Position numbers and translations under genes: made by a program. 64,000 nucleotides of DNA. Origin: Kiloniellaceae bacterium (GTDB lineage: Bacteria; Pseudomonadota; Alphaproteobacteria; Kiloniellales; J153). The notes beneath the pieces were generated by a model, which worked only from the letters and a program-made list of their open reading frames with translations, made no database searches and was not told where the DNA came from. Shown here piece after piece: positions 14,460-39,800 of the stretch. The DNA lies in NCBI GenBank assembly GCA_046758005.1, contig JBHHZJ010000004.1, positions 2,766 to 66,765 of the forward strand, given 5' to 3'. The stretch's first letter is position 1. Every line of letters begins with the position of its first letter.

Positions 14460-14622
14460 GAAATCCTTAACGACGTTCTGGCACATTTCGTGGGCCGCGC
14501 GAGGATCGAGCGTCCATCCCCGGGGGCAGTTCGCGCGTTGCGTGGGCGGGGGCCTCTGTGGCACAAGGATTCGAGCGCCGGGGGTGAGACACGTGCGATG
14601 GCTCGGACGCGGAGGCCGTTCG

Positions 14623-15864
14623 ATGGGACCGAGGGGAAGTTGGATCTCGCGAACCTTGTGTATTGGCCTTGCGGTGCTCTTCTTCGCCGTGGCGGGGCCG
14701 GCGGCGTCTGCAGAGCGGCCCGACTTCGCGGCGTGGCTCGAGGGCGTGAAACACGATGCCGCCGCGGCCGGCATCTCCCGGGCCACCATCGAATCCGCAC
14801 TGAGCGGCCTCGAACCCATCGAGCGGGTGCTCGAGCTCGACCGGCGCCAGCCGGAGTTCACGCAAACCTTTTGGACGTACTTGGACAAGCGGGTCACCGC
14901 GAAACGGGTCGAACGGGCACGCCGGCTTCTGGCCCGACACCGGGCGCTGCTCGCGAAGGTCGCCACGCGCTACGGCGTTCAGCCGCGCTTCCTGGTGGCC
15001 TTCTGGGGCCTGGAGAGCAACTTCGGCGAGTACACGGGCGGCTTTCCCGTGATCGCCGCGCTGGCGACGCTGGCCTACGACGCGCGGCGCGGCGAATTCT
15101 TTCGCGCCCAGCTGCTCGACGCCCTCAGGATCGTCGACCAGGGCCACGTGACGCCGGCGGGCATGCAAGGCTCCTGGGCGGGCGCGGTGGGGCAGGTCCA
15201 GTTCATTCCCTCGACCTTCGTGCGCTACGCCGTCGACTTCGACGGCGACGGCCGGCGCGACCTGTGGAACAGCCTGCCGGACGTGTTCGCCTCGGCGGCG
15301 AACTATTTGAGCGCGATCGGCTGGCGCGGCGGCGAGACCTGGGGCAGGGAGGTGCGGCTGCCGCCCGGGTTCGACTGGGAGCAGGCGAACCTGGAGGTGC
15401 GCAAGCCGCTCGCGGAGTGGCAGCGGCTCGGCGTGCGGCGCATGGACGGCAGAGATCTGCCGCGGGCCGACATGACGGGCGCGGTCGTCCTGCCGGCGGG
15501 GCACAAGGGCCCGGCCTTCCTTGTCTATCGCAACTTCGACGCCATCCTCGCCTGGAACCGGTCGATCCTCTACGCCCTGGCGGTGGGCCACCTTGCCGAC
15601 CGGATCGCGGGCGCGGCGCCGCTGATGTCCCGCCGGCCGCCCATGGAACAGCCGCTCAGCCGTTCCCAGATCGAGGAACTGCAGAGCCTGCTCGGGTCGC
15701 TCGGTTTCGACCCGGGCACGCCGGACGGCGTGGTCGGCTCCCGGACCCGCGCCGCCCTCAAGGCCTACCAGCGCCAAGCCCAACTCGCGCCCGACGGCTA
15801 TCCGACCGCGGAACTGTTGCAGGGATTGCGCCAACGCGCGGAACGTCAGGCGCAGTCGAACTGA
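14623..15864 (+). CDS. Lytic murein transglycosylase (MltB-type) with a C-terminal peptidoglycan-binding domain
   Basis: FWGLESNFG catalytic-Glu block, GQVQFIPSTF, and a C-terminal PG_binding_1-like LGFDPGTPDGVVGSRTRAALKAYQ. SD GGAGG before the ATG at 14623. Confidence 0.9.
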   Translation: MGPRGSWISRTLCIGLAVLFFAVAGPAASAERPDFAAWLEGVKHDAAAAGISRATIESALSGLEPIERVLELDRRQPEFTQTFWTYLDKRVTAKRVERARRLLARHRALLAKVATRYGVQPRFLVAFWGLESNFGEYTGGFPVIAALATLAYDARRGEFFRAQLLDALRIVDQGHVTPAGMQGSWAGAVGQVQFIPSTFVRYAVDFDGDGRRDLWNSLPDVFASAANYLSAIGWRGGETWGREVRLPPGFDWEQANLEVRKPLAEWQRLGVRRMDGRDLPRADMTGAVVLPAGHKGPAFLVYRNFDAILAWNRSILYALAVGHLADRIAGAAPLMSRRPPMEQPLSRSQIEELQSLLGSLGFDPGTPDGVVGSRTRAALKAYQRQAQLAPDGYPTAELLQGLRQRAERQAQSN

Positions 15865-15937
15865 CCTCGGCGTTGCCGCTGGAGAGCCTGTCCGGTAGAT
15901 TGGAAGATATACGGGCCTGTTACCGCGAACCCACAAG

Positions 15938-16918
15938 ATGATGATCCGACTCCGTACCAGACACCTCGTGCCGATCCTGCTCGCCGGTCTCGGTGTGCAC
16001 GGCTGCGCGGAGACCCAGTTGGCCGTATACACGGCCAAGCAGATCGCGCGGCCGGCCCCGCCGGCGGGCGACGGGGCCGGGGCTTACAAGGTCGGCAAGC
16101 CGTACCAGGTCCACGGCGTCTGGTACTATCCCAAGGCGGATTACGCCTACGAGGAGACCGGGATCGCCTCGTGGTACGGACCCGGCTTCGACGGCCGGCG
16201 CACCGCCAATGGCGAGACCTACGACGAGAACCGGCTGACCGCGGCCCATCGCACGCTGCCCATGCCGTCGATCGTTCGGGTCACCAACCTGGAGAACGGC
16301 CGCTCGATCGAGGTCCGCGTCAACGACCGCGGGCCCTTCAAGAACGGCCGGATCATCGACGTGTCGCGGCGCGCGGCCGATCTGCTCGGGTTCAGGCACA
16401 GCGGCACGGCCAAGGTCCGGGTCAAAATCGTCGAGGACGAAAGCCGGCGGCTCGCCACCATCGCGCTCGCGGGGGAGGCCGCCGCGCTGGCGCCCGATCC
16501 CGTGCCCACCGTGCCCGTGACGGCCGAGCCGCTGCACTCCGTCAACGGCGTCGCCCGGCCGACCCAGGCCTCCACCCCGGCCGCCAGCCAGACCGCGGCA
16601 GCGGTGCCGCGCCGGCCGGTCGCCACGGTGCGGCCACCGGCGATCCCGCCCGCGCCGGACGGGACCGTCACCACCGTGCCCGTGGGTCCCAGCGCGATCT
16701 ATGTTCAGGCCGGGGCCTTCACCCGGTTCGATTACGCCAACCGCCTGCGCGCGCGACTTTCCGGCCTCGGCGCCGTGGGAATCGCCGAGGCCGTGGTGGC
16801 CGACAGGCGCTTTTACCGGGTCCGGATCGGCCCGGTGGGCTCCGTCGAGGCCGCCGACCGCCTGCTCGACCTCCTCATCGCGAACGGCCACGCCGGCGCG
16901 CGCGTGGTCGTGGACTGA
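15938..16918 (+). CDS. rlpA: Septal-ring lytic transglycosylase RlpA family lipoprotein with a SPOR domain
   Basis: Lipobox (GVHGC), a DPBB core GIASWYGPGFDGRRTANGE...VRVNDRGPF, a Pro/Ala linker and a C-terminal SPOR-like domain. Confidence 0.9.
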   Translation: MMIRLRTRHLVPILLAGLGVHGCAETQLAVYTAKQIARPAPPAGDGAGAYKVGKPYQVHGVWYYPKADYAYEETGIASWYGPGFDGRRTANGETYDENRLTAAHRTLPMPSIVRVTNLENGRSIEVRVNDRGPFKNGRIIDVSRRAADLLGFRHSGTAKVRVKIVEDESRRLATIALAGEAAALAPDPVPTVPVTAEPLHSVNGVARPTQASTPAASQTAAAVPRRPVATVRPPAIPPAPDGTVTTVPVGPSAIYVQAGAFTRFDYANRLRARLSGLGAVGIAEAVVADRRFYRVRIGPVGSVEAADRLLDLLIANGHAGARVVVD

Positions 16919-17070
16919 ACCGCCCTTTCGATCGTGCCTGACCGTTTCGCGCACCGCCGATCCCACTTGTGCCGATCAAGTTTCCGGCTACGTTTCCGGA
17001 CGGCCGTGGACATGCCGCCGGCGTCCCTGGCGTAGCCACTCCACTCACCCGATATGGATTGAAGCGACCG

Positions 17071-18219
17071 ATGAACGACCGGAGATTGCGCCTTACCTGC
17101 CTGGCCCTGCTGCTCGGTTTGCTCGTCGGCCTCGGTGCCGCGCCGCGGGCCGACGCCATCGAGACCAGGGCGCGCGAGGCCATCGTGCTCGACGCGGACA
17201 CCGGGACCGTGCTGCTCGAGAAGGAGGCGGACAAGCCCATGCCGCCCGCATCCATGAGCAAGATCATGACCATGTACCTGGTCTTCGAGCGCCTCAAGGA
17301 CGGACGGCTGTCGCTCGACGACGAGCTGCCGGTCAGCGAGAAGGCCTGGCGCAAGGGCGGCTCAAAAATGTTCGTCGAGGTCGGCAGCCGCGTGCGCGTC
17401 GAGGATCTTGTGCGCGGGGTCATCGTGCAGTCGGGCAACGACGCCTGCATCGTGCTGGCCGAAGGTCTGAGCGGCACCGAGGAAGCCTTCGCCGAGGAGA
17501 TGACCCGCAAGGCGCGTGCGATCGGGCTCGACAACAGCCGTTTCGCCAACGCCACCGGCTGGCCGGACCCGAACCACTGGATGACCGCGCGCGACCTCGC
17601 GCTGCTGGCGCAGCGCACGATCGAGGATTTTCCGGAGTACTACCACTACTACTCGGAGACCGAGTTCACCTGGAACGGCATTCGCCAGACCAACCGGAAT
17701 CCGTTGCTGTACAGGTCCCTCCGCGCGGACGGCCTCAAGACCGGCCACACCGAGGAGGCGGGCTACGGCCTGACCGCCTCGGCGGTGCAGGACGGGCGCC
17801 GGCTCATCCTCGTCGTCACCGGGCTAGGCAGCCAGAAGCAGCGCGCGGAGGAGTCGGCGCGGCTGCTCGGCTGGGCGTTCCGCGAGTTCGACAACTACGC
17901 CCTGTTCAAACCGGGCGAGGTCGTCGATGAGGCGAAGGTCTGGCTGGGCGAGACGAAGACCGTGCCGCTGGTGGTGCCCGAAGGGCTGACGGTCACCCTG
18001 TCGCGCAAGGCGCGCAACGGCATGCAGGTCAAGGTCGCCTACGAGGGGCCGATCCCGGCCCCGATCGAGCAGGGCCAGCGGGTCGCCACCCTCGTCGTGA
18101 CCGCACCGGACACCGATCCGGTCAAGGTGCCGCTGCAGGCGGGCGAGGCGGTGGGACGCCTCGGCGTCTTCGGGCGCCTCACCGCCGGGCTGAAGTTCCT
18201 CGTCTTCGGCGCGCCATGA
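17071..18219 (+). CDS. D-alanyl-D-alanine carboxypeptidase (PBP5/6 class)
   Basis: Signal peptide, SMSK active-site motif (ASMSKIMT), SGN (QSGND), KTG (LKTGHT). Confidence 0.9.
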   Translation: MNDRRLRLTCLALLLGLLVGLGAAPRADAIETRAREAIVLDADTGTVLLEKEADKPMPPASMSKIMTMYLVFERLKDGRLSLDDELPVSEKAWRKGGSKMFVEVGSRVRVEDLVRGVIVQSGNDACIVLAEGLSGTEEAFAEEMTRKARAIGLDNSRFANATGWPDPNHWMTARDLALLAQRTIEDFPEYYHYYSETEFTWNGIRQTNRNPLLYRSLRADGLKTGHTEEAGYGLTASAVQDGRRLILVVTGLGSQKQRAEESARLLGWAFREFDNYALFKPGEVVDEAKVWLGETKTVPLVVPEGLTVTLSRKARNGMQVKVAYEGPIPAPIEQGQRVATLVVTAPDTDPVKVPLQAGEAVGRLGVFGRLTAGLKFLVFGAP

Positions 18220-21636: not shown

Positions 21637-22443
21637 ATGTCCATGCTGGTCGATTCGCACTGCCACCTCGACTACCTGGCGCGCGACGGCGACCTCGACG
21701 AGGTCGTCGCCCGCGCCCGTCAGGCCGGGGTCGGCGCCATGGTCACGATCTGCACCCGGCTGTCGGAGTTCGAGAGCGTGCGCGCCATCGCCGCGCGTTA
21801 CGACGGCGTGTGGTGCTCGCTCGGCGTCCATCCGCACGAGGCGGAGGCGGAGGGCCTGGAGGCCGCCGACCGCCTGGTCGCACTGGCGGGCCATGACGAG
21901 GTGGTCGGAATCGGCGAGACGGGGCTGGATTACTACTACGAGAATTCCCCGCGCGAGGCGCAGAAGCGGAGCTTCCGCGCCCACATCGAGGCGGCGCGGC
22001 AAACGGGGCTGCCGCTCGTGGTCCACGCGCGCGAGGCCGACGACGACGTCGTGGCCATGCTGCGCGCGGCCTACGCCGAGGGCCCCTTCACCGGCGTGAT
22101 CCATTGCTTCACCGCGGGGCCCGAACTGGCGGGCGCGGCGCTCGAGATGGGGCTGTACATCTCCGTGGCCGGCATCGTGACCTTTAAGAAGGCGGACGCC
22201 CTGCGCGCCGTGGTGCGCGAGGTGCCGCTCGACCGCCTGCTGGTCGAGACCGATTCGCCTTACCTGGCCCCGGTGCCCATGCGGGGCCGGCGCAACGAGC
22301 CCGCCTTCGTCGAGCACGTTGCGGCCGCCGTGGCCGAGCTCAAGGGGATCGGCGCCGAAGACCTCGCCCGCGCGACCACCGACAACGCCTTTCGCCTGTT
22401 CTCGAAAGCCAAGCGGCCGGAGGCCGCGGCCGCGCCCGCATGA
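21637..22443 (+). CDS. TatD family metal-dependent hydrolase
   Basis: VDSHCHLD, GETGLDYYY and ETDSPYLAP motifs. An alternative ATG lies at 21643. Confidence 0.9.
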   Translation: MSMLVDSHCHLDYLARDGDLDEVVARARQAGVGAMVTICTRLSEFESVRAIAARYDGVWCSLGVHPHEAEAEGLEAADRLVALAGHDEVVGIGETGLDYYYENSPREAQKRSFRAHIEAARQTGLPLVVHAREADDDVVAMLRAAYAEGPFTGVIHCFTAGPELAGAALEMGLYISVAGIVTFKKADALRAVVREVPLDRLLVETDSPYLAPVPMRGRRNEPAFVEHVAAAVAELKGIGAEDLARATTDNAFRLFSKAKRPEAAAAPA

Positions 22444-22459
22444 GCGCGCGAGGCGCGGC

Positions 22460-23242
22460 GTGAAGGTCACGGTGCTGGGTTGCGGCGGCTCCGGCGGCGT
22501 CCCGTACGTCGACGGCACGCCCGGCGGCAACTGGGGCAGATGCGACCCGGGCAACCCGAGGAATCGGCGCCGGCGGGTGTCCATCCTGGTGGAGCAGGGC
22601 GGCACGGTCCTGCTCGTCGATACCTCGCCGGATCTGCGCGCCCAACTCCTGGATGCCGGGGTAAGCCGCCTCGACGCGGTCCTCTTCACGCACGCGCACG
22701 CCGACCACGCGCACGGCCTGGACGAGCTGCGCGGCCTGGTCTACGCCCGGCGCGCGCCGCTCGAGGCCTACATGGACGAGGCAACCCACGCGGAACTGAC
22801 GGCACGCTTCGCCTACGCCTTCGCCTCGAGCCGCGATCCGCGGAACCCGTACCGGCCGCTGTTCACGGATCACGTGATAAACGGCCCGTTTCGTGTTGGC
22901 GCGCTTGACATTATTCCTTTCACGCAAGGTCACGGATTGGAGACGACGCTGGGCCTGCGCTTCGGCCCGGTCGCGTACTCGACCGACGTGTCCGCGCTCG
23001 ACGAGGCCGCCTTCGCGGCGCTCGAGGGCCTCGAGGTCTGGATCGTGGACTGCCTGCGCGATGCGCCGCACCCGACGCACTCCCATCTGGCGCAGACCTT
23101 GGCGTGGATCGCGCGCGTGCGCCCCGAGCGCGCCGTGCTGACGCACATGAACCATCAGATCGACTACGAGGATCTGCGCTCGCGCTGTCCGCCGGGCGTC
23201 GAGCCGGCCTACGACGGCATGGTCATCGAGGTCGCGGGCTGA
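22460..23242 (+). CDS. MBL-fold metallo-hydrolase
   Basis: GTG start (VKVTVLGCGGSGG), HxHxDH motif (THAHADHAHG). Conserved position after tatD in alphaproteobacteria. Confidence 0.85.
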   Translation: MKVTVLGCGGSGGVPYVDGTPGGNWGRCDPGNPRNRRRRVSILVEQGGTVLLVDTSPDLRAQLLDAGVSRLDAVLFTHAHADHAHGLDELRGLVYARRAPLEAYMDEATHAELTARFAYAFASSRDPRNPYRPLFTDHVINGPFRVGALDIIPFTQGHGLETTLGLRFGPVAYSTDVSALDEAAFAALEGLEVWIVDCLRDAPHPTHSHLAQTLAWIARVRPERAVLTHMNHQIDYEDLRSRCPPGVEPAYDGMVIEVAG

Positions 23243-23581
23243 TTTCGCAAGCGCTGCAAGAAGTGGCCGACGTTCTTGTCCGGACAATCCCGGTCAGGCG
23301 GACGGCGCCATGGGTCCCAACGTTCCTGCCGTTCGAAGCCTGGTTCCCATGGCCGGAATTTTCCATAATATACATTATGCGCGTTCTCGATCCACGAGAG
23401 TGGGCGATCCGGGTCCTGCCGTTGCGTTCCCTTTCCGGCAGAAGGATTTTTCGCGGGCGGTGGATCCCCACCACAAGGACACAAGGACGCGAAGGACTTC
23501 AATACGTTCCTGGTTGCTTCGCGTCTTCGCGGCGAATACCCAGGCGCGGGGATCCGGGCATGAATCGCTGGAATCGGATCA

Positions 23582-25804
23582 CTAAGTCTTGACGCCCAGC
23601 TCCTCCAGGCGTTTGGCGGCCCATTCGTGGCCGCGCGCGGCGGAGCGGCGGAACCAGCGGATCGCCTCGTCCATGTTCTTCTCGACGCCCCAGCCGTTCT
23701 CGTACATCTGGCCCATGTTGTATTCGGCGTAGCTGTCGTACTTGGCCGCGGCCTTGGCGAACCAATCGAGCGCCTCGGTGTAGCTTTGCGGCACGCCCCA
23801 TCCCTGCCGGTACATGTAGCCGAGGTCGTTCATGGCGTTGACGTAGCCCTGTTCGGCGGCGCTGCGGTACCACCGGACGGCTTGGCCGTGGTCGGCCTCG
23901 ATCCCCTCGCCCTTCTCGTACATCCAGCCGACCCGGTTCTGCGCGCCCGGGTGGCCCATCTCGGCCGCCTTGAGGTAGGAGCGGAACGCGAGCGTGAGGT
24001 TCTTGCGCACACCCTGGCCGTGGTAATGGCGGTCGCCCTTCTTGAACAGCTCGTCCGCGCTGCCGCCGCCGCCCGCGATCCAGGAAAAGAACGCGTTCGA
24101 CTTCCTATGGCGGGTATCCCGTCCCGCGCCGATCGCAGAGTGCTGGGAGCCGGTAAGGCCGGGCGGGCCGTCGCGCACCGGCTCGGCCTTGGCGCCGGGC
24201 GCGATCGCGGTCTCCGCAGTCAGCACGAGTTCGGGCTTTGCGGGCGTGTCCGGGCGTTCCTTCCCGTCTCTTCTGCGCACCGCCCCGGACGTTGTCTCGG
24301 CCGGGCCCTGGGTGACGGGTTGGGTCTGGTCGGGCTCGGTGTTCGCGCCGGGTTCGCACGGTGGGGCCGTCTCCGCAGTGGGGGCGCCTTCCGCGCTCGC
24401 GGTAGGATCCGGCAAAGCGGTCGTCTCGTCCGAAAGATCGGCCGGGTCCCCTTCATCGGTCGCCACCGATTGGGCCGTGACCGGCCGCAGGACGGACGAT
24501 TGCCCGGTGACGGGATGCGGTTTGGCCGACCGATCGGGTTTGCCCTGACCGTCCGAGGCCTTGCGGTCCTTGCTCCGGGCGCGGAACGGAAAGATCGGCG
24601 CCGAGGCCTTCACCGGTGGCTCTTCCGGCGCGCCGGCCTTGGGATTCTCGGCCGCCGGCGCGTCCGGCCGGGCCGCCTCCGGGCCGTCCGGCGCGGCGAC
24701 GTCGCTCCCAGGCGCGGCCACCGAGGCCTCGGTTGCTTCGCCGGACCGGTCGCCGCCGCGAGGCGTGGCGTCGGAAGCTTCGGCGTACAGGCTGACGATC
24801 AAACGCTTGGACGCCGAGGTCGCGCCTTCGGCCTCCTCGGCGTCGATGCCGGCCGCGACCACGGAGACGCGCATGCGGCCCTCGAGGCTCTGGTCGAAGA
24901 TCGAGCCGAAGATGATGTTGGCCTCCGGGTCGATCTCGTCGCGGATGCGGTTGGCCGCCTGGTCGATCTCGAACAGGGTCAGGTCCATGCCGCCGGTGAT
25001 GTTGATCAGCACGCCGCGCGCACCCTTCATCGAGACCTCGTCGAGCAGCGGGTTGGAGATCGCGGCCTCGGCGGCGGCCAGCGCCCGGTTCTCGCCCTCG
25101 GCCTCGCCGGTGCCCATGATCGCCTTGCCCATCTCGGTCATGACCGAGCGCACGTCGGCGAAGTCCAGGTTGATCAGCCCGGGCGTGACCATGAGGTCGG
25201 TGACCCCGCGCACGCCCGCATGAAGCACCTCGTCGGCCATCTTGAAGGCGTCCGCGAAGGTCGTCTTCTCGTCGGCGACCCGGAACAGGTTCTGGTTCGG
25301 GATCACGATCAGGGTGTCGACGTACTGGGTCATCTCCGCGATGCCCACTTCCGCGACGCCCATGCGCCGCGCGCCTTCGAAGTGGAACGGCTTGGTGACC
25401 ACGCCGACGGTGAGGATCCCGGTCTCGCGCAGGGCCCGGGCGATGACGGGGGCGCAACCGGTGCCGGTGCCGCCGCCCATGCCGGCGGTGATGAACACCA
25501 TGTTGGCGCCGTCGAGCTCGGCCAGGATCTCTTCCAGAGCCTCCTCGGCGGCGCTCCGCCCCACGTCGGGCCGCGAGCCGGCGCCCAGGCCCTGGGTGAT
25601 GTTGCGGCCCATCTGGATGCGCCGCTCGCACAGCGATTGGCCGAGCGCCTGGGCGTCGGTGTTCGCGACCAGGAATTCCACCCCGCCGAGCTTGGCCTGG
25701 ATCATGTTGTTGACGGCGTTGCCGCCCGCGCCGCCGACGCCGACGACGACGATCCGCGGCCCTGCCCCCGCCTCCTTGGGTGGATGTTCGGGCGTGTCTT
25801 TCAT
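23582..25804 (-). CDS. FtsZ-family GTPase fused through a long disordered linker to four C-terminal Sel1 repeats
   Basis: aa 1-320 form a complete FtsZ core: [28 protein letters not shown]7 loop. aa 321-582 are a P/A/E/G/T-rich linker. aa 583-740 are four 36-aa Sel1-type repeats (..[28 protein letters not shown].., ..[25 protein letters not shown].., ..[28 protein letters not shown]..). There is no terminal D-I-P-x-F-L-type peptide and no dcw neighbours. Confidence 0.9.
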
Positions 25805-26096
25805 AGACCCGGTCTCCAGATCTCCCTGGACGGCGATCGGTCACCGCGCGCGGGAAACACCCGGCGTACACGCGGCTCGCGGTCACGGGCCCGCACTGCG
25901 GCGGAAGGCACCATCACCGTGTACTCCGCAGGTTCAAACGGCCGGTTACCGCGAAGCCTAAAGTGGATAATTGTGGCGCGCAACTCATTACCGGTAAAGA
26001 CCAGGAAACATGATTGCGACAGCGCCCAGCGGCCACCGACGGAGGCGGGGGCGGTCTTTGCCCCCTTCCCCTTCCTTCTGTATGCTCAGGCCCGCC

Positions 26097-26912
26097 ATGC
26101 GCGAGCGCCCCGACGGCAATCCGGTAGCCCGGCTTCTTCAGATCATGGCGCGCCTGCGCGACCCCGGGAACGGTTGTCCCTGGGACGTGCGGCAGACCTT
26201 CAAGACCATCGCCCCCTACACCATCGAAGAGGCCTACGAGGTGGCCGACGCCATCGAGCGCGGCGACATGGACGCGCTCAAGGAGGAACTGGGCGACCTC
26301 CTGCTCCAGGTTGTGTTCCACGCCCGCATGGCCGAGGAGGCCGGCGGCTTCGACTTCGCCGCGGTGGCCGCGGCGATCGGCGACAAGATGGTCCGCCGCC
26401 ACCCGCACGTCTTCGGCGGCGAGGAGATCGCCTCCGCCGAGGCGCAGACCCGCGCGTGGGAGGAGCACAAGGCCGCCGAACGCCGCACCAAGGCGGCGGC
26501 ACATGGGCGCCGGCCGAGCGTGCTCGACGGCGTGGCCGCCGGGCTGCCGGCGCTGACGCGCGCGACGAAGCTGCAGCGCCGGGCCGCCCGGGTCGGCTTC
26601 GACTGGCCGGAGGCCGCGCAGATCCTGGACAAGATCGCCGAGGAGGTCGGTGAGCTGCGCGAGGAGGTCGAGGCCGGCGCGGGCCTCGACCGGGTCGAGG
26701 ACGAGTTGGGCGACCTCCTGTTCGCCGCGGTCAACCTGGCGCGCCGCCTCGAGGTCGATCCCGAAGGGGCGCTGCGCCATACCAACGCCAAGTTCGAACG
26801 CCGGTTCCGGCGCATCGAAGATCGCTTCGCCGCCGAAGGCCGAAGCCTGTCGGACATATCGCTCGACGAGATGGAGGCGGCCTGGCAGGCGGCGAAATCC
26901 GCCGAGCGGTGA
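26097..26912 (+). CDS. mazG: Nucleoside triphosphate pyrophosphohydrolase MazG
   Basis: CPWDVRQTFKTIAPYTIEEAYEVADAI plus a second MazG repeat with EEVGELxEE. An alternative ATG lies at 26082. Confidence 0.9.
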   Translation: MRERPDGNPVARLLQIMARLRDPGNGCPWDVRQTFKTIAPYTIEEAYEVADAIERGDMDALKEELGDLLLQVVFHARMAEEAGGFDFAAVAAAIGDKMVRRHPHVFGGEEIASAEAQTRAWEEHKAAERRTKAAAHGRRPSVLDGVAAGLPALTRATKLQRRAARVGFDWPEAAQILDKIAEEVGELREEVEAGAGLDRVEDELGDLLFAAVNLARRLEVDPEGALRHTNAKFERRFRRIEDRFAAEGRSLSDISLDEMEAAWQAAKSAER

Positions 26913-30416: not shown

Positions 30417-30739
30417 GGCTTGGATACCTGCCCGTTCTGATTGGTTGGAACCGCCGAGCGGCCCCTGTCGGCCGCTGGCGGAAGGTAACGCGCCATCGTC
30501 GATGCCGGACGGATGCCGTGGCGGCGCGGTCGCGCCGGAGGATTGCGTATCCGTGCGCCGCCCGTCAACCCGGTCGCCGCGCCGATCCCCTGGCCCTAAA
30601 GGCGGTCGTGAACTGGCTCTGTTCAGGCCCGCGGCGCGCGGTAATATCCACGTCGAGGTTCGCCCGGCGCGCCTTGGCACGCCGTGCGCGTGAACATGGC
30701 GTTTGGTCTTCACGAGATCGGTTCGAAGGGAGAGCGGAC

Positions 30740-32458
30740 ATGACCCGCATGACGCCCAGCGAGGCCTTCGTCGAAACCCTGGTCAATCACGGCGTGACCG
30801 ACGTGTTCGGAATCGTCGGCTCCGCCTACATGGACGCGCTCGACATCTTCGAGCCGGCGGGCATCCGATTCATCTCGGTCGCACACGAGCAGGGCGCCGG
30901 GCACATGGCCGACGGCTACTCGCGCGTGAGCAACCGTCACGGCGTGTGCATCGCCCAGAACGGGCCCGGTATCACCAACTTCGTCACCGCCATCGCCGCG
31001 GCCTATTGGGCGCACTCGCCGGTCGTGTGCATCACGCCCGAGACCGGCAGCGGCACGCAGGGCCTGGGCGGCTTCCAGGAGACCGAGCAGCTCCCCTTCT
31101 TCGAGAAGATCACCAAGTACCAGGCGCACGTGTACAGGCCCGACCGGATCGCCGAGTTTACCGGGCGCTGCTTCGACCTGGCCATGACCGAGCGCGGCCC
31201 GACCCAGCTCAACATCCCGCGCGACTACTTCTACGGCGACATCGACGTGGAGATCCCACGGCCCATCGCGGTCGAGCGCTCGGCCGGCGGCCGACGCAGC
31301 CTGGAGCGGGCGGCCAAGGCGCTCGCCGGGGCCCAGTTCCCAGTCATCGTCGCAGGCGGCGGCGTCGTCATGTCCGACGGCCAAGAGGAGGTGAAGGCGC
31401 TGGCCGAATACCTCTACGCGCCGGTCGTCGCCAGCTACCTGCACAACGATGCCTTTCCGGCCGGCCACGAGCTGATGTGCGGTCCGCTCGGCTACCAGGG
31501 CTCCAAGGCCGCGATGAAGGTCATCGCGCAGGCCGACGTCGTGCTCGCGCTCGGCACGCGCCTGGGCCCGTTCGGCACGCTGCCCCAGCACGGGATCGAC
31601 TACTGGCCGAAGAATGCCAAGGTCATTCAGGTCGAGACGGATCACCGTATGATCGGCCTGGTCAAGCCGATCAGCGTCGGCGTCTGCGGCGACGCCAAGC
31701 TGGCCGCCGAGGCGATCCTCAACCTCCTGCAGACCAGCAACGAGCAGATCGCCTGCCATGGCAACAAGGAACGGCGCTTGGCCGAAATCCGCGGCCAGAA
31801 GGCCGAGTGGGAGGCCGAGCTCGACACCTGGGGTCAGGGCGACGGCAGCCCGATCGCCCCGCGCCGCTGTTTGCGCGAGCTGGAGAAGGCCATGCCGGCC
31901 AACGCCATGGTCACCACCGACATCGGCAACATCTGCTCGGTTTCCAACAGCTACCTGCGGTTCGAGAAGCCGCGCAGCTTCTTCGCCGCGATGAGCTTCG
32001 GCAACTGCGGCTACGCCTTTCCGACCGCGATCGGCGCCAAGGTCGCCCAGCCCGACCGGCCGGCCGTGGCCTACGTCGGCGACGGGGCCTGGGGCATGAG
32101 CCTGGGCGAGACGCTGACCTGCGTGCGCGAGAACATCCCCGTGACCGCCGTGGTGTTCAACAACGGCCAATGGGGTGCGGAGAAGAAGAACCAGGTGGAT
32201 TTCTACGCCGACCGTTACGTCGGCACCAACCTGAAGAACCCGAGCTTTGCGGCGGTCGCCCAGGCCATGGGTGCGGAAGGAATCACGGTCGGGCATCCGG
32301 ATCAGGTCGGCGACGCGCTCAGACAAGCGACCTTCTCGGACAAGACGACGATCGTCGAGATCATGGTCACCCAGGAGCTGGGCGACCCGTTTCGGCGCGA
32401 TGCGCTCAAGAAGCCGGTGCGCCTGCTCGACAAGTACAAAGAGTACACGGTCGCCTGA
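30740..32458 (+). CDS. xsc: Sulfoacetaldehyde acetyltransferase (ThDP-dependent)
   Basis: ThDP enzyme whose N-terminus and ThDP motif (YVGDGAWGMS...VVFNNGQWGAEKKNQVDFY) match my recollection of Xsc. Followed by tauE, ackA and pta. Start at MTRMTPSEAF (30740). Confidence 0.85.
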   Translation: MTRMTPSEAFVETLVNHGVTDVFGIVGSAYMDALDIFEPAGIRFISVAHEQGAGHMADGYSRVSNRHGVCIAQNGPGITNFVTAIAAAYWAHSPVVCITPETGSGTQGLGGFQETEQLPFFEKITKYQAHVYRPDRIAEFTGRCFDLAMTERGPTQLNIPRDYFYGDIDVEIPRPIAVERSAGGRRSLERAAKALAGAQFPVIVAGGGVVMSDGQEEVKALAEYLYAPVVASYLHNDAFPAGHELMCGPLGYQGSKAAMKVIAQADVVLALGTRLGPFGTLPQHGIDYWPKNAKVIQVETDHRMIGLVKPISVGVCGDAKLAAEAILNLLQTSNEQIACHGNKERRLAEIRGQKAEWEAELDTWGQGDGSPIAPRRCLRELEKAMPANAMVTTDIGNICSVSNSYLRFEKPRSFFAAMSFGNCGYAFPTAIGAKVAQPDRPAVAYVGDGAWGMSLGETLTCVRENIPVTAVVFNNGQWGAEKKNQVDFYADRYVGTNLKNPSFAAVAQAMGAEGITVGHPDQVGDALRQATFSDKTTIVEIMVTQELGDPFRRDALKKPVRLLDKYKEYTVA

Positions 32459-32515
32459 CCGCTCCCGCGCCGCGCCGCGGCCGCGTGGGCCGACGGCGCC
32501 CGCCTCGGCGATGGC

Positions 32516-33316
32516 GTGTCGCGGCGGCGCCCGCCGAGGGTGCGCGCCTTCTTGTCGACCGCGGACGGGAGGCCGGGAGAGGTGGACCTCGCCGCGCTCG
32601 CTTTCGCATTGGCCGCCGTTACGCTCGGCGCGGTCGTGCGCGGCTACAGCGGCTTCGGCTCTTCGCTCATCTGGATGAGCAGCCTGTCGCTGGTGTTCGC
32701 TCCCGTCCTGGTCGTGCCCGCGGTCTACATTCTCGAGGTTCTGGCGAGTGGCCGGCTCTTGCCGGCGGTCTGGAGGGAGGCCGACTGGCGCTCGATCAAA
32801 TGGCTTTTGCTCGGCACGCTTCTCGGCACGCCGCCCGGCCTTTATCTGCTCTCGACGCTTCCTGCCGCACCCGTGCGGGTGGCCATTTCGCTCGTCGTGT
32901 TCGGCGCGACGCTGCTGATCTGGCGCGGCTTCGCCTTGAAATCGGTGCCCGGGCCCGCGCCGACCGTTCTGACCGGTCTTGCGTGCGGGCTGCTCAATGG
33001 TTGGACCGGGATCGGCGGTCCGCCCGCGATCCTGTTTTATTTCTCCTCGCCCGCCGCCGTGGCGGTGTCGCGCGCCTCGCTGATCGCGTTTTTTCTGGCT
33101 ATCGATGCCTTCGGCTTTGTCATGGCGACGACCCAGGGCCTCGTGACCGGACAGGTGCTGCTGCTCGCGGCCATCCTATCCGTGCCCGTCCTGCTCGGCA
33201 TCACCGTGGGCAACCGCCGGTTCATCCGCACCGAGCCGGAATCGTTCCGCCGCTTCGTGCTGATCCTGCTCACGTTGCTCTCGCTCGCGGTGTTCGTGCG
33301 CGCGGTGATCGGGTGA
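32516..33316 (+). CDS. TauE/SafE (TSUP) family sulfite/anion exporter
   Basis: Polytopic protein with GYSGFGSS and GIGGPP motifs. Immediately downstream of xsc. The true start may be an internal GTG. Confidence 0.8.
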   Translation: MSRRRPPRVRAFLSTADGRPGEVDLAALAFALAAVTLGAVVRGYSGFGSSLIWMSSLSLVFAPVLVVPAVYILEVLASGRLLPAVWREADWRSIKWLLLGTLLGTPPGLYLLSTLPAAPVRVAISLVVFGATLLIWRGFALKSVPGPAPTVLTGLACGLLNGWTGIGGPPAILFYFSSPAAVAVSRASLIAFFLAIDAFGFVMATTQGLVTGQVLLLAAILSVPVLLGITVGNRRFIRTEPESFRRFVLILLTLLSLAVFVRAVIG

Positions 33317-36866: not shown

Positions 36867-39800
36867 TCAGCCCAGTTCCGCAAGGAGCGTCCGGGCGTCC
36901 ATCAGATCGGCCGTGTCCAAGCCCTCGGTGAACCATTCGTAGACCGGCGCCAGGATTTCTCGGGCCTCAATGGTCTTGCCCTGCGCTTGCCACAGGCGGG
37001 CAAGATTGGTGGCCGCTCGAAGTTCCAACGCTCTCACGCCCTGGTTCCGCGCGATTCCGATGGCCCGATCGAAGCACGCTTCGGCCTCAGGCCCGTTGTC
37101 TCGCGATTGCATAAGCAGGAGTTCACCCCTGAGGCGATGAAGCTCTGCCAGCCAATAGTGCGCGCCATGGCGCTCGCTGGCGACAAGCCCCTCGTCCAGC
37201 AGGGTCAGACCAATCTCGGGTCGGGCGACTGCGCCGAAGGCCTCCGCCAGAATGCCGAGCACATGTGACTCTTCGACCGTTCGCCCCGCCGACCGCCTGG
37301 CGCTCAGCGCGTCGTGCATCCGCCGGACGGCGGGTTCGGACCGGCCCTGCCGGATTTCGGCCCAGCCGCGGAGAATTTCTCCGGTCGTCAGGTCCTCGGA
37401 AAAGTCCCATTCGGCGGCCAGGGCCAAGAGCGCCTCGGCCCGTTCAAGGACCTTTTCCGGCTCCCTGCGGAACAGATGCACGAGGGTCGACTCGATCCAG
37501 GCAAGCGCCATCGAGGAAGGCTGATCGAGTTCGCGCGCAAGCCGTACAGCCTTGTCGATTCTTTCGAGCGCCCGATCGGGCCGGCCCGAGAGCCACAGGA
37601 CGAGCGCAGCCGTGCCTTGGCCGCAAACGCAAGGGTCGTGTCCGGCAATGACGAAAGCCTGTTTGCGGTGTTCTTGCGGGCTGTATAGGGCGACGCCCTG
37701 GTCCACGTGATCCTGCGCGGCGGCGAATTTTCCAAGGTAGTAGAGCGTGGTCCACTGAGCGTGGTGGGCCTGCAACAACAGCGTCGAGTCCTCTTGGTCC
37801 CGGGCTAGGTCGAGCAGCTCCTGCGCCAGCTCGTGTGCGATCGAAAGGTTGGCGCGTGTTCGGTGACAGCGCCACAGGCCCCAAAGCACTGGAAACAGAA
37901 GAGACGTGTCCCCGGTTTCCTCGCACAGCTGTCGGGCCTCGCCGTAAACACGTCCCACATCCGGGGAGCTGGCACCCCTGGTGGCCTGCAGGGAAATACC
38001 CATGGCCAGCAACAGCATGGTCTTCTGGCGGCTATGCTCCTTCGTCTTCGGTAGACTCTCGAGCAGGTCGAGCCCCTTTCTCAAGTGAGCGATCGCTTCG
38101 GTATTGGCGGAGCGCTCGATGGCGCGCTCGCCGGCTTGTTGCCAATACGGAATGGCCTGCGCCGCCAATCCAGCCTCGGTGTAGTGGTGCGCCAACCGCT
38201 CGGACTGCTCGGCCAGACGGCCGGCGAACGTCGCCTCGATCGCCTCGGCGATCTGCCGGTGCAACCCGGCCCGCCGCTCCTGGAGCAGGCTGCCGTAAGC
38301 GACCTCGTGGGTGAGGGCGTGCTTGAAGGTGTACTCGCGATCCGGGAACAACCGCGTCTCGTAGAGGAATTCGCCGGCTTGAAGGGCCGCCGACCCGCGG
38401 TCCAAATCCTCCTCCCGCAGGTCGGCGACCGCCTGCAACAGCACGCGGGGCACGTCCTTGCCGATTACGGCCGCCGTCTGAAGCAATCGTTTGTCCTCCG
38501 GCACCAGCCGGTCGATGCGCGCGGCCAGAACGCCTTGCACCGTGACCGGGACGCGCACGGATCCAACGTCCTCGACCAGTCGATAGGCGCCGGGGGTGCC
38601 CGCGAGGGCGCCGGTTTCGACCACGGTGCGAACGCTCTCCTCGACGAAGAAGGGGTTGCCCTCGGTGCGGGTGATCAGCAGCCGCTTGAGTCCCGCAAGG
38701 CCGGGATCGTCGCCCAAGAGACTGGCCAGCAGCTCGCCTGCGCTTTCGGGCGGCAGCGGGTCGATCCGCCGCTGGGTGTAGTAAGTCTTGCCGCCCCAGC
38801 CATGGCGGTATTCGGGACGGTAGTTGACCAGAAGAAGGATGCGGGCCGCGGGGAGGCTTTCCACCAAACTGTCCAGCACGGCTTGAGTCTCGCTGTCGAT
38901 CCAGTGCAGGTCCTCGAAGACGAGCACCACGGGCTGAACCTGGCTCTCCCGCAGCAGCAGGCCCTTCACCGCATCCAGTGTGCGCCGGCGGCGTTGCGGT
39001 GGTTGTAGGGCCCTCCAATCCTGCTCGTCGACCGGCACATCCATGAGGACGAGCAAGGCAGCCAACGCCGACCTCAGGTTTTCGTCGAGGGTGAGCAGCT
39101 TCCCGGTGACCTTTTCCCGTATCCGGCGGATGTCGTCACGCGTGTCGATCCGGAAGTAGGCCTTCAGCAGATCGATGACCGGCAGGTAAGCGGTAGCCTT
39201 GCCGTAAGAGACCGACCCGCTCTCCAGGACCAGCCAATTCTCGGTGCGATGCGAGTGCGTGAACTCGTAGAACAGACGGGACTTGCCCACGCCGGGCTCG
39301 CCGACCACGGCGACGATTTGGCCCTGACCGCGCTCCGCCCGCGCGAGCGCCCGGTTGAGCGCTTCAAGTTCGGTGTCTCGCCCGACGAACCGGGTGAGCC
39401 CGCGCGCCACGGCGGCATGAAAGCGCGTCCGCATCGGCGCCGCTCCGGTGAGCTCGAACACTTCTATGGGCTGATCCAGGCCCTTGATCGGCACCGGGCC
39501 GAGGGAGCGCACCCGTACGAAGCCCTCGGCCAGGCGCAAGGTCTCGCCGGTGAGCCGAATCGCGCCGGGCAATCCGGTCTGTTCCATGCGGCCGGCAAGG
39601 TGAACCGTCTGCCCGATCGCGTCGTAATCCATGGTCAGGTCGTTGCCGATGGCGCGGACCACCACGTCCCCCGAGTTCAGCCCGACCCGGAGTCGCACCT
39701 CGACGCCGTGCTCCCGCCTGGTCCGTTCGGCCTGAGCGGCCATGGCTTCCTGCATGGCGAATGCGGCGTAGCAAGCCCTGACCGCGTGATCCTCGTGCGC

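What the first reader, a model, noticed from the sequence alone, without database searches (positions are those of the whole stretch)
23582..25804. FtsZ paralogue with the FtsA/ZipA-binding tail replaced by four Sel1 repeats
The first 320 aa are a complete, apparently functional FtsZ core, with the GGGTGTG GTP-binding loop and the NLDFADV T7 synergy loop intact. After a roughly 260-aa Pro/Ala/Glu/Gly/Thr-rich linker, the protein ends in four regular 36-aa Sel1-type repeats rather than the short conserved C-terminal peptide that tethers FtsZ to FtsA, ZipA or FzlC. The gene sits alone between an MBL hydrolase and mazG, not after ftsQ-ftsA in a dcw cluster. I know of no characterised FtsZ with a Sel1/TPR adaptor module. 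The architecture suggests a tubulin-like filament recruited to a different partner through the repeats. That could be an accessory division, polarity or organelle-positioning system.
Basis: partly seen in the sequence, partly recalled or inferred. Interest (0 to 1): 0.8.

Follow-up and report, generated by a model that had tools for sequence, protein, structure and literature searches.

The report
Extra FtsZ with Sel1-repeat tail
This is a real, conserved second copy of the bacterial division protein FtsZ whose usual partner-binding end has been swapped for a Sel1-repeat protein-binding module, and the gene sits right beside the chromosome's dimer-resolution site (dif); nobody has characterised such a protein.

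Summary
Window 23582-25804 (-) is one 740-aa ORF: a full FtsZ core (Pfam Tubulin + FtsZ_C; TIGR00065 400 bits against a cut-off of 295), a disordered linker of about 245 aa, and four Sel1 repeats (1.4e-36; AlphaFold pLDDT 95-98). The lineage's C-terminal peptide (DIPAFLRRQAN) is absent.

About 48 protein clusters from independent assemblies share this architecture, all from uncultured Kiloniellales, so it is not a chimera.

It is an extra paralogue. Three MAGs carrying an orthologue also carry a canonical ftsZ after ftsQ-ftsA. This window's own genome could not be checked.

Core and tail are both under purifying selection (dN/dS 0.05-0.12). The core evolves 3-5 times faster than the canonical one.

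A basic/aromatic linker motif shared with canonical FtsZ sits just before the repeats. This suggests the repeats replaced the distal linker and the peptide.

New here: the gene lies about 200 bp from a dif site (23/28 to E. coli dif). The ancestral arrangement MBL | dif | mazG is widespread, and the gene was inserted between mazG and dif.

The function is inferred. The most likely role is co-assembly with canonical FtsZ, with the repeats recruiting an unknown partner. I rate it a new variant of a known kind.

The parts
23582..25804 (-). Complete FtsZ-Sel1 ORF (740 aa plus stop codon)
   Evidence: ORF list. It is identical to NCBI protein MFQ5773148.1, 'MAG: cell division protein FtsZ [Kiloniellaceae bacterium]'. 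GC3 is 0.90.
24839..25759 (-). FtsZ GTPase/polymerisation core (aa 16-322), containing GGGTGTG and the T7 loop NLDFAD
   Evidence: Pfam Tubulin + FtsZ_C and TIGR00065. It matches solved FtsZ structures at 1e-101. It is 80-86% identical to canonical Kiloniellaceae FtsZ, with only 4 positions that discriminate the two groups. dN/dS is 0.065-0.10 among close orthologues.
24113..24838 (-). Disordered linker rich in Ala/Pro/Gly/Glu/Thr (aa 323-564)
   Evidence: AlphaFold pLDDT is below 40. Composition. dN/dS is 0.3-0.6. It starts with the conserved (V/I)SL strand motif also found in canonical FtsZ.
24575..24601 (-). Clade-specific short linear motif APIFPFRAR (aa 402-410) inside the linker
   Evidence: Conserved as APVFPFRAR in the subclade that includes the window. 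Another subclade has DKSFFQRLAPAKP, and a third has none. AlphaFold predicts no docking for it. Its function is unknown.
24062..24112 (-). Basic/aromatic pre-tail motif [17 protein letters not shown] (aa 565-581)
   Evidence: F573 and W575 are at least 90% conserved among the fusions. The same motif type, (K/R)..[LIF]F[AS]x[VIMF][TSA]GG, occurs 87-130 aa before the C-terminus of canonical Kiloniellales FtsZ. It marks the junction after which the Sel1 module replaces the distal linker and the C-terminal peptide.
23585..24058 (-). Sel1-like repeat domain (aa 583-740): four helix pairs plus a capping helix
   Evidence: Pfam Sel1 x4. AlphaFold pLDDT is 95-98 with 9 helices. The best solved relatives are Sel1-repeat proteins 6ok3, 4bwr and 8sxq, and SEL1L. 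It is 71-90% identical across the family. dN/dS is 0.05-0.12.
25952..25984 (-). Conserved upstream element GTTGCGCGCC-N11-CTTTAGGCTTCG, a putative promoter of the fusion gene
   Evidence: It is conserved in the window, L001, L085 and L088, with a variant in L002, amid otherwise unalignable intergenic DNA. It is absent from mazG-dif loci that lack the fusion. Its role as a promoter is an inference.
23358..23385 (-). dif site (XerC arm, 6-bp centre, XerD arm): AACGCGCATAATGTATATTATGGAAAAT, 197 nt downstream of the stop codon
   Evidence: It matches E. coli dif at 23 of 28 positions (sequence quoted in PMC3025954). It occurs once in the window, with 0 expected by chance. It is perfectly conserved beside the fusion gene in L001, L055, L085, L087, L088 and L155, with unconserved flanks. 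In many metagenome contigs it sits between the MBL hydrolase and mazG. Cumulative GC skew peaks at about 18-24 kb.
22319..23242 (+). MBL-fold hydrolase, last gene of the mltB-rlpA-dacC-tmk-holB-metG-tatD-MBL run on the other side of dif (context)
   Evidence: Pfam Lactamase_B_2. The same run is found in L001 and L088.
26010..26912 (+). mazG, divergent neighbour upstream of the fusion gene (context)
   Evidence: Pfam MazG. mazG is the upstream neighbour in every fusion locus examined.

Best explanation
Shown:
- This is a functional, vertically inherited second FtsZ of an uncultured Kiloniellales lineage. Orthologue-bearing genomes also have the canonical dcw-cluster ftsZ.
- It keeps an intact GTP-binding and polymerisation core and a long disordered linker.
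- After a linker motif shared with canonical FtsZ, the distal linker and the FtsA/FzlC-binding C-terminal peptide are replaced by a four-repeat Sel1 domain.
- The gene was inserted between mazG and the chromosomal dif site at the replication terminus.

Inferred:
- The core is 80-86% identical to the resident FtsZ, and all nucleotide and T7-loop residues are unchanged. The protein therefore most likely co-assembles with canonical FtsZ into the Z-ring, as other accessory FtsZ paralogues are thought to do.
- It cannot bind the usual membrane tethers itself. Instead it presents the Sel1 solenoid on a flexible tether, as a built-in adaptor that recruits or holds an as yet unknown cytoplasmic partner at the division site.
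- The conserved basic/aromatic motif (KKRRSGG-FFSW-I) just before the repeats may add weak membrane or partner binding.
- The position next to dif may simply reflect insertion at a known integration hot spot.
For: Architecture and motifs.

Family of about 48 clusters with the same architecture.

Co-occurrence with canonical ftsZ in a dcw cluster:
- GCA_021776115.1, P0002 + P0061.
- GCA_021776135.1, P0015 + P0055.
- GCA_021776095.1, P0005 + P0054.
- JGI sample 3300057239, P0009 + P0070.

Synonymous divergence is similar for fusion pairs and canonical pairs of the same genomes (dS 0.66-1.0 against 0.54-0.86). This fits co-inheritance.

Purifying selection acts on the core (dN/dS 0.065-0.10) and the tail (0.05-0.12), with a fast-evolving linker.

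Only 4 core positions discriminate the fusions from canonical FtsZ (V19/T, R146/H, I229/M, Q282/E), and all catalytic motifs are invariant.

The shared linker motif directly precedes the Sel1 domain.

There is no signal peptide or transmembrane segment (maximum 19-residue hydropathy 1.18), so the repeats are cytoplasmic.

Insertion next to dif.

I found no paper describing an FtsZ-Sel1 protein.
Against: - The rest of the window's own genome could not be examined, so its canonical ftsZ is inferred from orthologues. MAG bins can be contaminated.
- Co-polymerisation, midcell localisation and any binding partner are untested.
- The neighbourhood offers no partner gene. The flanking genes are housekeeping genes that are also found there in genomes without the fusion.
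- The core evolves 3-5 times faster than the canonical core. This could also mean it has diverged towards a separate filament system.
- Monophyly of the fusion cores has only weak bootstrap support (24% for 40 of 44 sequences). It is supported mainly by the shared tail and the four signature residues.
- AlphaFold gave low confidence for aa 172-226, which covers H7 and the T7 loop. This is probably an effect of the shallow alignment.
Confidence: 0.6

Rival explanations
1. It forms an independent cytoskeletal filament that does not join the Z-ring. The paralogue would build its own polymers and use the Sel1 domain to position or scaffold something else, such as a polar complex, an organelle, or the terminus region or FtsK/XerCD machinery near which it is encoded.
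For: - The core evolves faster than canonical FtsZ and carries four family-specific substitutions.
- It has no C-terminal peptide, so it cannot use the standard tethers.
- Linkage to dif is conserved across the two most divergent clades examined.
- From my own knowledge, there is a precedent: Magnetospirillum FtsZm has a role outside general division.
Against: - A core 80-86% identical to the resident FtsZ, with unchanged interface motifs, makes mixing of the two polymers hard to avoid.
- No dedicated partner genes are co-located.
- Adjacency to dif is equally explained by insertion at a hot spot.
Confidence: 0.2
2. It modulates or brakes division. By co-assembling without a C-terminal peptide, it would dilute tether-binding sites in the Z-ring or sequester a division factor through the Sel1 domain. 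This would tune or delay constriction, by analogy with the truncated FtsZ1 of Agrobacterium, which inhibits division when overexpressed.
For: - Aubry et al. (bioRxiv 10.1101/2025.09.29.679267) report that FtsZ1 lacks the linker and C-terminal domain and inhibits division when overproduced.
- The fusion likewise lacks the C-terminal peptide.
- Its position at the terminus gives it the lowest gene dosage on the chromosome (inference).
Against: A pure 'poison subunit' would not need a 158-aa folded domain kept at dN/dS 0.05-0.12 and 71-90% identity across the family. This reading overlaps with the best explanation and does not exclude it.
Confidence: 0.15
3. It is an artefact or a decaying gene: a chimeric assembly, a frameshift that fuses two genes, or a pseudogenised duplicate.
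For: None was found. The only reason for concern is that the sequence comes from a MAG.
Against: - The same uninterrupted architecture occurs in about 48 clusters from four data sources, on contigs up to 1.6 Mb.
- Core and tail are under strong purifying selection.
- GC3 is 0.90 throughout the ORF.
- The N-terminus and an upstream element are conserved.
Confidence: 0.02

Closest known systems
Canonical FtsZ of Kiloniellaceae (e.g. Pelagibius; P0050-P0120)
   Same: The GTPase core is 80-86% identical, with all nucleotide-binding and T7 motifs. Both have a long disordered linker that begins with the same (V/I)SL strand, and both contain the basic (L/F)F(A/S)x(V/M/I)(T/S)GG motif.
   Different: Canonical proteins continue for 87-130 aa after that motif and end in DIPAFLRRQAN. 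They lie after ftsQ-ftsA in the dcw cluster. The fusion ends in four Sel1 repeats and lies next to dif.
Truncated accessory FtsZ paralogues of Alphaproteobacteria (Agrobacterium FtsZ1, Rhizobiaceae/Phyllobacteraceae duplicates, Magnetospirillum FtsZ-like)
   Same: Each is a second ftsZ outside the dcw cluster, in a genome that keeps the canonical gene, and lacks the C-terminal peptide.
   Different: According to that survey, those paralogues end after the GTPase domain or a minimal linker, and none has an added folded domain. This one keeps a linker of about 245 aa and gains a Sel1 domain. It arose separately, within Kiloniellales.
Chloroplast FtsZ1/FtsZ2 pairs (from my own knowledge, not tested here)
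   Same: Two co-assembling FtsZ paralogues, only one of which carries the conserved C-terminal tether-binding peptide.
   Different: The plant FtsZ1 has no repeat domain. It is evolutionarily unrelated to this duplication.
BtubA/B with Bklc in Prosthecobacter (PMC5372463)
   Same: A tubulin-superfamily filament is coupled to a helical-repeat (TPR-type) adaptor that links it to another cellular structure (abstract seen).
   Different: There the adaptor is a separate protein encoded in the operon, and the filament is a tubulin-like heterodimer. Here the adaptor is fused to an FtsZ.
Bacterial Sel1-like repeat proteins (6ok3, E. coli C5321/4bwr, 8sxq, H. pylori 1ouv; ExoR, MotX, AlgK)
   Same: They share the repeat type, at E 1e-38 to 1e-66 against solved Sel1 proteins, and the predicted alpha-alpha solenoid.
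   Different: To my knowledge most characterised bacterial members are secreted or periplasmic. This module has no signal peptide and is fused to a cytoplasmic protein. Its ligand is unknown.

Membership tests
FtsZ (TIGR00065; Pfam Tubulin + FtsZ_C) | Tubulin/FtsZ GTPase domain with the G-box GGGTGTG | tested here: met
   PF00091 at 4e-48, aa 17-177. GGGTGTG is at aa 110-116 and is invariant across the 120 aligned sequences.
FtsZ (TIGR00065; Pfam Tubulin + FtsZ_C) | FtsZ C-terminal subdomain and T7 synergy loop NxDxxD | tested here: met
   PF12327 at 4e-38, aa 226-321. NLDFAD is at aa 212-217, and N212, D214 and D217 are invariant.
FtsZ (TIGR00065; Pfam Tubulin + FtsZ_C) | Whole-protein score above the curated equivalog cut-off | tested here: met
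   400.4 bits against a cut-off of 295.2.
FtsZ (canonical division FtsZ) | Conserved C-terminal peptide that binds FtsA/ZipA/FzlC (DIPAFLRRQ in this lineage) | tested here: not met
   No D[IL]PAFLR motif was found in any of the 44 fusion sequences identified by the first motif search, whereas 65 canonical relatives end with it.
FtsZ (canonical division FtsZ) | Gene located after ftsQ-ftsA in the dcw cluster | tested here: not met
   It lies between mazG and dif/MBL hydrolase. There is no ftsA or ftsQ in the window. The canonical copies in orthologous MAGs are in dcw clusters.
FtsZ (canonical division FtsZ) | GTP-dependent polymerisation and Z-ring formation | not testable with these tools
   This needs biochemistry and microscopy.
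Sel1-like repeat (SLR) proteins | Tandem Sel1 HMM matches above the gathering score | tested here: met
   Four stretches, 124 bits against a cut-off of 30.7. Solved Sel1 proteins match at up to 2e-66.
Sel1-like repeat (SLR) proteins | Alpha-alpha repeat solenoid fold | tested here: met
   The AlphaFold model has 9 regular helices at aa 583-735 with pLDDT 95-98. This is a prediction, not a solved structure.
Accessory (non-dcw) FtsZ paralogues of Alphaproteobacteria | Coexists with a canonical ftsZ in the same genome | tested here: met
   Met for orthologues in three MAGs and one metagenome sample. It is not testable for the window's own genome. The only other ftsZ search possible, within the 64-kb window, found none.
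Accessory (non-dcw) FtsZ paralogues of Alphaproteobacteria | Truncated after the GTPase domain or a minimal linker (the FtsZ1 / FtsZ-like type) | tested here: not met
   It has a linker of about 245 aa plus a 158-aa folded domain. The survey reports no duplicate with an extra domain.
dif (XerCD chromosome dimer resolution site) | 28-bp site with two 11-bp arms and a 6-bp centre matching the proteobacterial consensus | tested here: met
   23 of 28 positions are identical to E. coli dif. The full TGTATA centre and the inner arm halves match.
dif (XerCD chromosome dimer resolution site) | Single copy at the replication terminus (GC-skew switch, change in gene orientation) | tested here: inconclusive
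   There is one copy in the window. Cumulative GC skew peaks at about 18-24 kb, and genes to the left are on the + strand. However, the skew is weak and only 64 kb are visible.
dif (XerCD chromosome dimer resolution site) | Conserved genomic position across related genomes | tested here: met
   53 of 80 metagenome loci carrying this sequence have metG-tatD-MBL and/or mazG beside it. At least 12 show both sides.
dif (XerCD chromosome dimer resolution site) | Recombination by XerC/XerD activated by FtsK | not testable with these tools
   This needs an experiment. The xerC, xerD and ftsK genes are not in the window.

The most novel reading that the evidence does not exclude
The protein would be a self-contained linker between the Z-ring and another division-time structure. 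It would co-polymerise with canonical FtsZ. Its highly conserved Sel1 groove would capture a short peptide of a core division or segregation factor. Candidates are the C-terminal peptide of neighbouring canonical FtsZ subunits (which would make it a built-in filament cross-linker) or a component of the terminus/FtsK/XerCD machinery. In the second case its conserved position as the gene next to dif would be functionally meaningful, for example through synthesis at the terminus late in the cell cycle.
Probability: 0.12. Interest if true: 0.85.

Novelty: new variant of a known kind. Interest (0 to 1): 0.6.

Why it matters
FtsZ's short C-terminal peptide is the hub through which nearly all known partners dock onto the Z-ring. 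A natural, conserved FtsZ in which this hub is replaced by a folded peptide-binding repeat domain amounts to an evolutionary experiment in rewiring that hub.

It offers a new handle on three questions:
- How accessory FtsZ paralogues are used.
- How modular the linker and tail are.
- Which partners can be brought to a tubulin-like filament.

The separate finding that dif lies between an MBL hydrolase and mazG in many metagenome contigs, apparently alphaproteobacterial, gives a practical landmark for the replication terminus in fragmented assemblies. It also shows that a division-gene duplicate was fixed at a known integration hot spot.

Tried and rejected
- Looking up the window's own protein in the contig index found nothing. 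Protein accessions of 20 candidate proteins were also checked, and none of the canonical FtsZs came from the same MAG as MFQ5773148.1. The window's own genome therefore could not be checked for a canonical ftsZ.
Only one tiny contig (L055) had the tail.
- The exhaustive HMMER search with the tail alone was swamped by very long multi-Sel1 proteins. It says nothing about the donor of the tail.
- The window's upstream region has a DnaA-box-like TTATCCAC, but it is not conserved in the orthologous loci, so I dropped it. The spacing I counted by eye for a sigma-54-type reading of the conserved upstream element (10-11 nt) does not fit the 12 nt expected.
- The sigma-70 and terminator scans gave nothing above chance.
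- No second dif-like site flanks the gene; the best match has 15 mismatches. An XerCD-mediated origin of the insertion therefore cannot be shown.
- Rfam finds only a distant tRNA in the window.
- AlphaFold gives no confident docking of the linker motifs onto the Sel1 domain or the core.
- The Biopython bootstrap run timed out. I replaced it with my own neighbour-joining code, which resolves the subclades but not the deep monophyly of the fusion cores.
- Sel1 proteins already tied to growth and division in Alphaproteobacteria (RgsF; ExoR is also cited in that paper) are separate proteins, not FtsZ fusions.
Full report
**1. The observation**

Window 23582..25804 (- strand) is a single 740-aa ORF with an ATG start.

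- Pfam finds Tubulin (aa 17-177, 4e-48), FtsZ_C (aa 226-321, 4e-38) and four Sel1 repeats (1.4e-36, 124 bits against a gathering score of 30.7).
- NCBIfam's ftsZ equivalog model scores 400 bits against a cut-off of 295.
- GGGTGTG (aa 110-116) and NLDFADV (aa 212-218) are present.
- The core matches solved FtsZ structures at 1e-101, and the tail matches solved Sel1-repeat proteins at up to 2e-66.

An AlphaFold model built on 48 family members gives three regions. The core is confident apart from aa 172-226. The linker (aa 322-571) is disordered, with pLDDT below 40. The C-terminal domain is very confident (pLDDT 95-98) and has nine regular helices, which is four Sel1 helix pairs plus a cap. The linker is rich in Ala, Pro, Gly, Glu and Thr, and there is no hydrophobic segment anywhere in the protein.

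The run mltB, rlpA, dacC, tmk, holB, metG, tatD and an MBL-fold hydrolase lies on the + strand to the left. mazG lies divergently to the right. No other ftsZ or Sel1 sequence is in the 64-kb window.

**2. It is a family, not an artefact**

The protein is identical to an NCBI MAG protein annotated simply as 'cell division protein FtsZ [Kiloniellaceae bacterium]'. About 48 clusters at 90% identity share the Tubulin + FtsZ_C + Sel1 architecture. They come from NCBI, JGI, ENA and Logan assemblies, on contigs up to 1.6 Mb. Those that carry a name are MAGs of Kiloniellales or unclassified (Alpha)proteobacteria, and none is from a cultured strain.

The tail is 71-90% identical across the family, including stretches such as [48 protein letters not shown] and [22 protein letters not shown].

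Among close orthologues, dN/dS is 0.065-0.10 for the core, 0.05-0.12 for the tail and 0.3-0.6 for the linker. Both folded parts are therefore maintained by selection.

**3. It is an extra paralogue**

Canonical FtsZ proteins of the same order (566-659 aa) end in EEDLLDIPAFLRRQAN, and none of the fusions has this peptide.

Three MAGs from one study each contain a fusion orthologue and a canonical ftsZ:

| Assembly | Fusion | Canonical |
|---|---|---|
| GCA_021776115.1 | P0002 | P0061 |
| GCA_021776135.1 | P0015 | P0055 |
| GCA_021776095.1 | P0005 | P0054 |

Each canonical gene sits after ddl-ftsQ-ftsA and before lpxC-bamD-recN. In GCA_021776115.1 the full cluster mraY-murD-ftsW-murG-murC-murB-ddl-ftsQ-ftsA-ftsZ-lpxC-bamD-recN-ligA is visible.

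A further pair comes from JGI sample 3300057239. The fusion is on a 1.26-Mb contig and the canonical gene is in a dcw cluster on a 317-kb contig.

Synonymous divergence between genomes is similar for the fusion genes and for the canonical genes, as expected if both are inherited together.

Between the same two genomes, the fusion cores are 88.6% identical and the canonical cores 97.7% identical. The canonical core has dN/dS of about 0.02. The paralogue is therefore constrained, but 3-5 times less so.

Only four core positions separate fusions from canonical proteins: V19/T, R146/H, I229/M and Q282/E.

In neighbour-joining trees, 40 of 44 fusion cores group together beside canonical Kiloniellales FtsZ. 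The subclades are well supported but the deep node is weak. A single origin is better supported by the shared tail and the four signature residues.

I could not search the rest of this window's own genome. Its canonical ftsZ is inferred.

**4. How the fusion was built**

Directly before the Sel1 domain, all fusions have a basic/aromatic motif. Examples are [17 protein letters not shown] in the window and KKRGNSIFAWMTGGG or KKRRSGGLFSWMAGRGG in others.

Canonical Kiloniellales FtsZ has the same kind of motif inside its linker, 87-130 residues before its C-terminus. Examples are PKRGGQSLFAKVTGAARAL and RKKAQRLFANFTEGAARAL.

The simplest reading is that a full-length duplicate lost everything after this motif, namely the distal linker and the C-terminal peptide, and gained the Sel1 module there. 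This is an inference from motif similarity.

The motif's role is unknown in either protein. Its basic cluster followed by Phe/Trp/Ile resembles short membrane-targeting sequences such as that of MinD. That resemblance is my recollection and is untested.

Subclades also carry their own short linker motifs: APVFPFRAR in the window's clade, DKSFFQRLAPAKP in another, and none in a third. AlphaFold does not dock any of these onto the folded domains.

**5. Where the gene sits: next to dif**

Aligning the region downstream of the gene across loci revealed a perfectly conserved AT-rich island in otherwise unalignable DNA. It is AACGCGCATAATGTATATTATGGAAAAT, at window 23358-23385 (- strand), 197 nt after the stop codon.

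- It matches E. coli dif (GGTGCGCATAATGTATATTATGTTAAAT, quoted in PMC3025954) at 23 of 28 positions, including the whole central hexamer.
- It occurs 121-196 nt downstream of the fusion gene in L001, L085, L087 and L088, downstream of it in L055, and about 740 nt downstream in L155. The orientation is the same in all of them.
- In the divergent locus L002, a one-mismatch copy lies 7.7 kb downstream, behind several IS elements.
- Cumulative GC skew in the window peaks at about 18-24 kb, and gene orientation changes there. This is consistent with the replication terminus, though the skew is weak.

A scan of metagenome contigs for this dif sequence returned 80 loci. Of these, 53 have metG-tatD-MBL and/or mazG beside the site. 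At least 12 show MBL | dif | mazG with no ftsZ. Only one (L155) has mazG - FtsZ-Sel1 - dif - MBL.

The widespread arrangement is therefore MBL | dif | mazG, and the paralogue was inserted between mazG and dif in this lineage.

The spot is variable in the relatives. L085 has a prophage-like block, L087 a 555-aa orphan ORF and L002 a set of IS elements. This fits the known use of dif by integrating elements (my own knowledge). No second dif-like site remains, so the mechanism of the original insertion cannot be shown.

**6. A conserved upstream element**

A 33-nt block, GTTGCGCGCC...CTTTAGGCTTCG (window 25952-25984, -), is conserved upstream of the fusion gene in the window, L001, L085 and L088, with a variant in L002. 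It is absent from the mazG-dif loci without the fusion. I take it to be the gene's promoter region, which is an inference.

**7. What it most likely does**

Shown:
- It is a selected, intact FtsZ core.
- It lacks the tether-binding peptide.
- It carries a selected cytoplasmic Sel1 solenoid on a flexible linker.
- It coexists with a canonical FtsZ in orthologue-bearing genomes.

Inferred:
- With 80-86% core identity and unchanged nucleotide and T7 motifs, it should co-assemble with the resident FtsZ.
- It would then decorate the Z-ring with a peptide-binding module that recruits or retains an unknown partner.

Rival readings are an independent filament system, possibly connected with the terminus, and a modulator that dilutes tether sites or sequesters a factor, as proposed for Agrobacterium FtsZ1. 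The neighbourhood gives no partner, because the flanking genes are housekeeping genes that sit there whether or not the fusion is present.

**8. Comparison with what is known**

Accessory FtsZ paralogues outside the dcw cluster are known in Alphaproteobacteria. The recent survey by Aubry et al. reports duplicates that are truncated after the GTPase domain or that keep all four canonical regions. None has an added domain.

Full-text searches for FtsZ with Sel1, with Kiloniellales, or with TPR fusions found no description of this architecture.

The nearest functional analogy is BtubAB with the TPR protein Bklc, where the adaptor is a separate protein.

I therefore file it as a bona fide FtsZ-family protein, but not a canonical division FtsZ, because two defining features of the canonical gene are not met. 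It is a new variant among accessory FtsZ paralogues.

**9. Verdict**

It is a new variant of a known kind, with interest 0.6. It is conserved, selected and uncharacterised, and it has an unexpected, conserved position beside dif. However, it is confined to uncultured bacteria and its partner is unidentified.

Noticed in passing
window 23358-23385 (- strand); also L001 12238, L055 2278, L085 12410, L087 6200, L088 6351, L155 8745, L002 19796: A 28-bp dif site (AACGCGCATAATGTATATTATGGAAAAT, 23/28 to E. coli dif) lies just downstream of the FtsZ-Sel1 gene. It marks the replication terminus and is perfectly conserved while its flanks are not.
   Followed up: yes
L091-L170 (e.g. L100, L105, L138, L149, L152, L161, L167, L168): Across many metagenome contigs (GC 42-70%), the same dif sequence sits between metG-tatD-MBL hydrolase and mazG. 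This looks like a widely conserved terminus landmark, apparently in Alphaproteobacteria. Twenty-seven of the 80 loci showed none of these neighbours, and I did not examine them.
   Followed up: partly
L085 12368-22214; L087 6419-8086; L002 12450-21828; L001 12302-12760: The space beside dif is variable among relatives. L085 has a prophage-like block of small ORFs with Rep_1, DUF87, SLT and P2_N/P2_C domains. L087 has a 555-aa ORF with no Pfam match. L002 has several IS elements (IS66, IS1595, DDE_Tnp_1). L001 has a 152-aa orphan. This fits integration at dif, but I did not look for element ends.
   Followed up: no
Canonical FtsZ proteins P0050-P0120, 87-130 aa before their C-termini: Canonical Kiloniellales FtsZ has a conserved motif inside the otherwise variable linker, e.g. 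PKRGGQSLFAKVTGAARAL. Further conserved patches such as D.F.AP.P and DPFA.AA also occur. Their function is unknown to me. The first motif is retained in the fusions.
   Followed up: partly
window 25952-25984 (- strand): A conserved upstream block, GTTGCGCGCC...CTTTAGGCTTCG, is specific to loci with the fusion gene. It does not fit the sigma-70 consensus used by the scanner. In the window it overlaps a DnaA-box-like TTATCCAC, which is not conserved elsewhere.
   Followed up: partly
window 14542-18219 (+ strand): Three peptidoglycan-remodelling genes sit a few kb from dif, in the same conserved run as tmk-holB-metG-tatD. They are mltB-like (SLT_2 + PG_binding), rlpA (DPBB + SPOR) and dacC (PBP5 type). 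The run is also present in L001.
   Followed up: no
window 36867-40292 (- strand): A 1141-aa protein has an N-terminal SAM domain, an adenylate/guanylate cyclase domain and an AAA_16 (STAND-type) ATPase. This is an unusual signalling architecture, and its C-terminal half has no Pfam match.
   Followed up: no
window 30518-33316 and L002 2267-6961: A TPP-dependent enzyme and a TauE-family exporter lie on the mazG side in both the window and the distant locus L002. Synteny on that replichore therefore extends beyond mazG.
   Followed up: no
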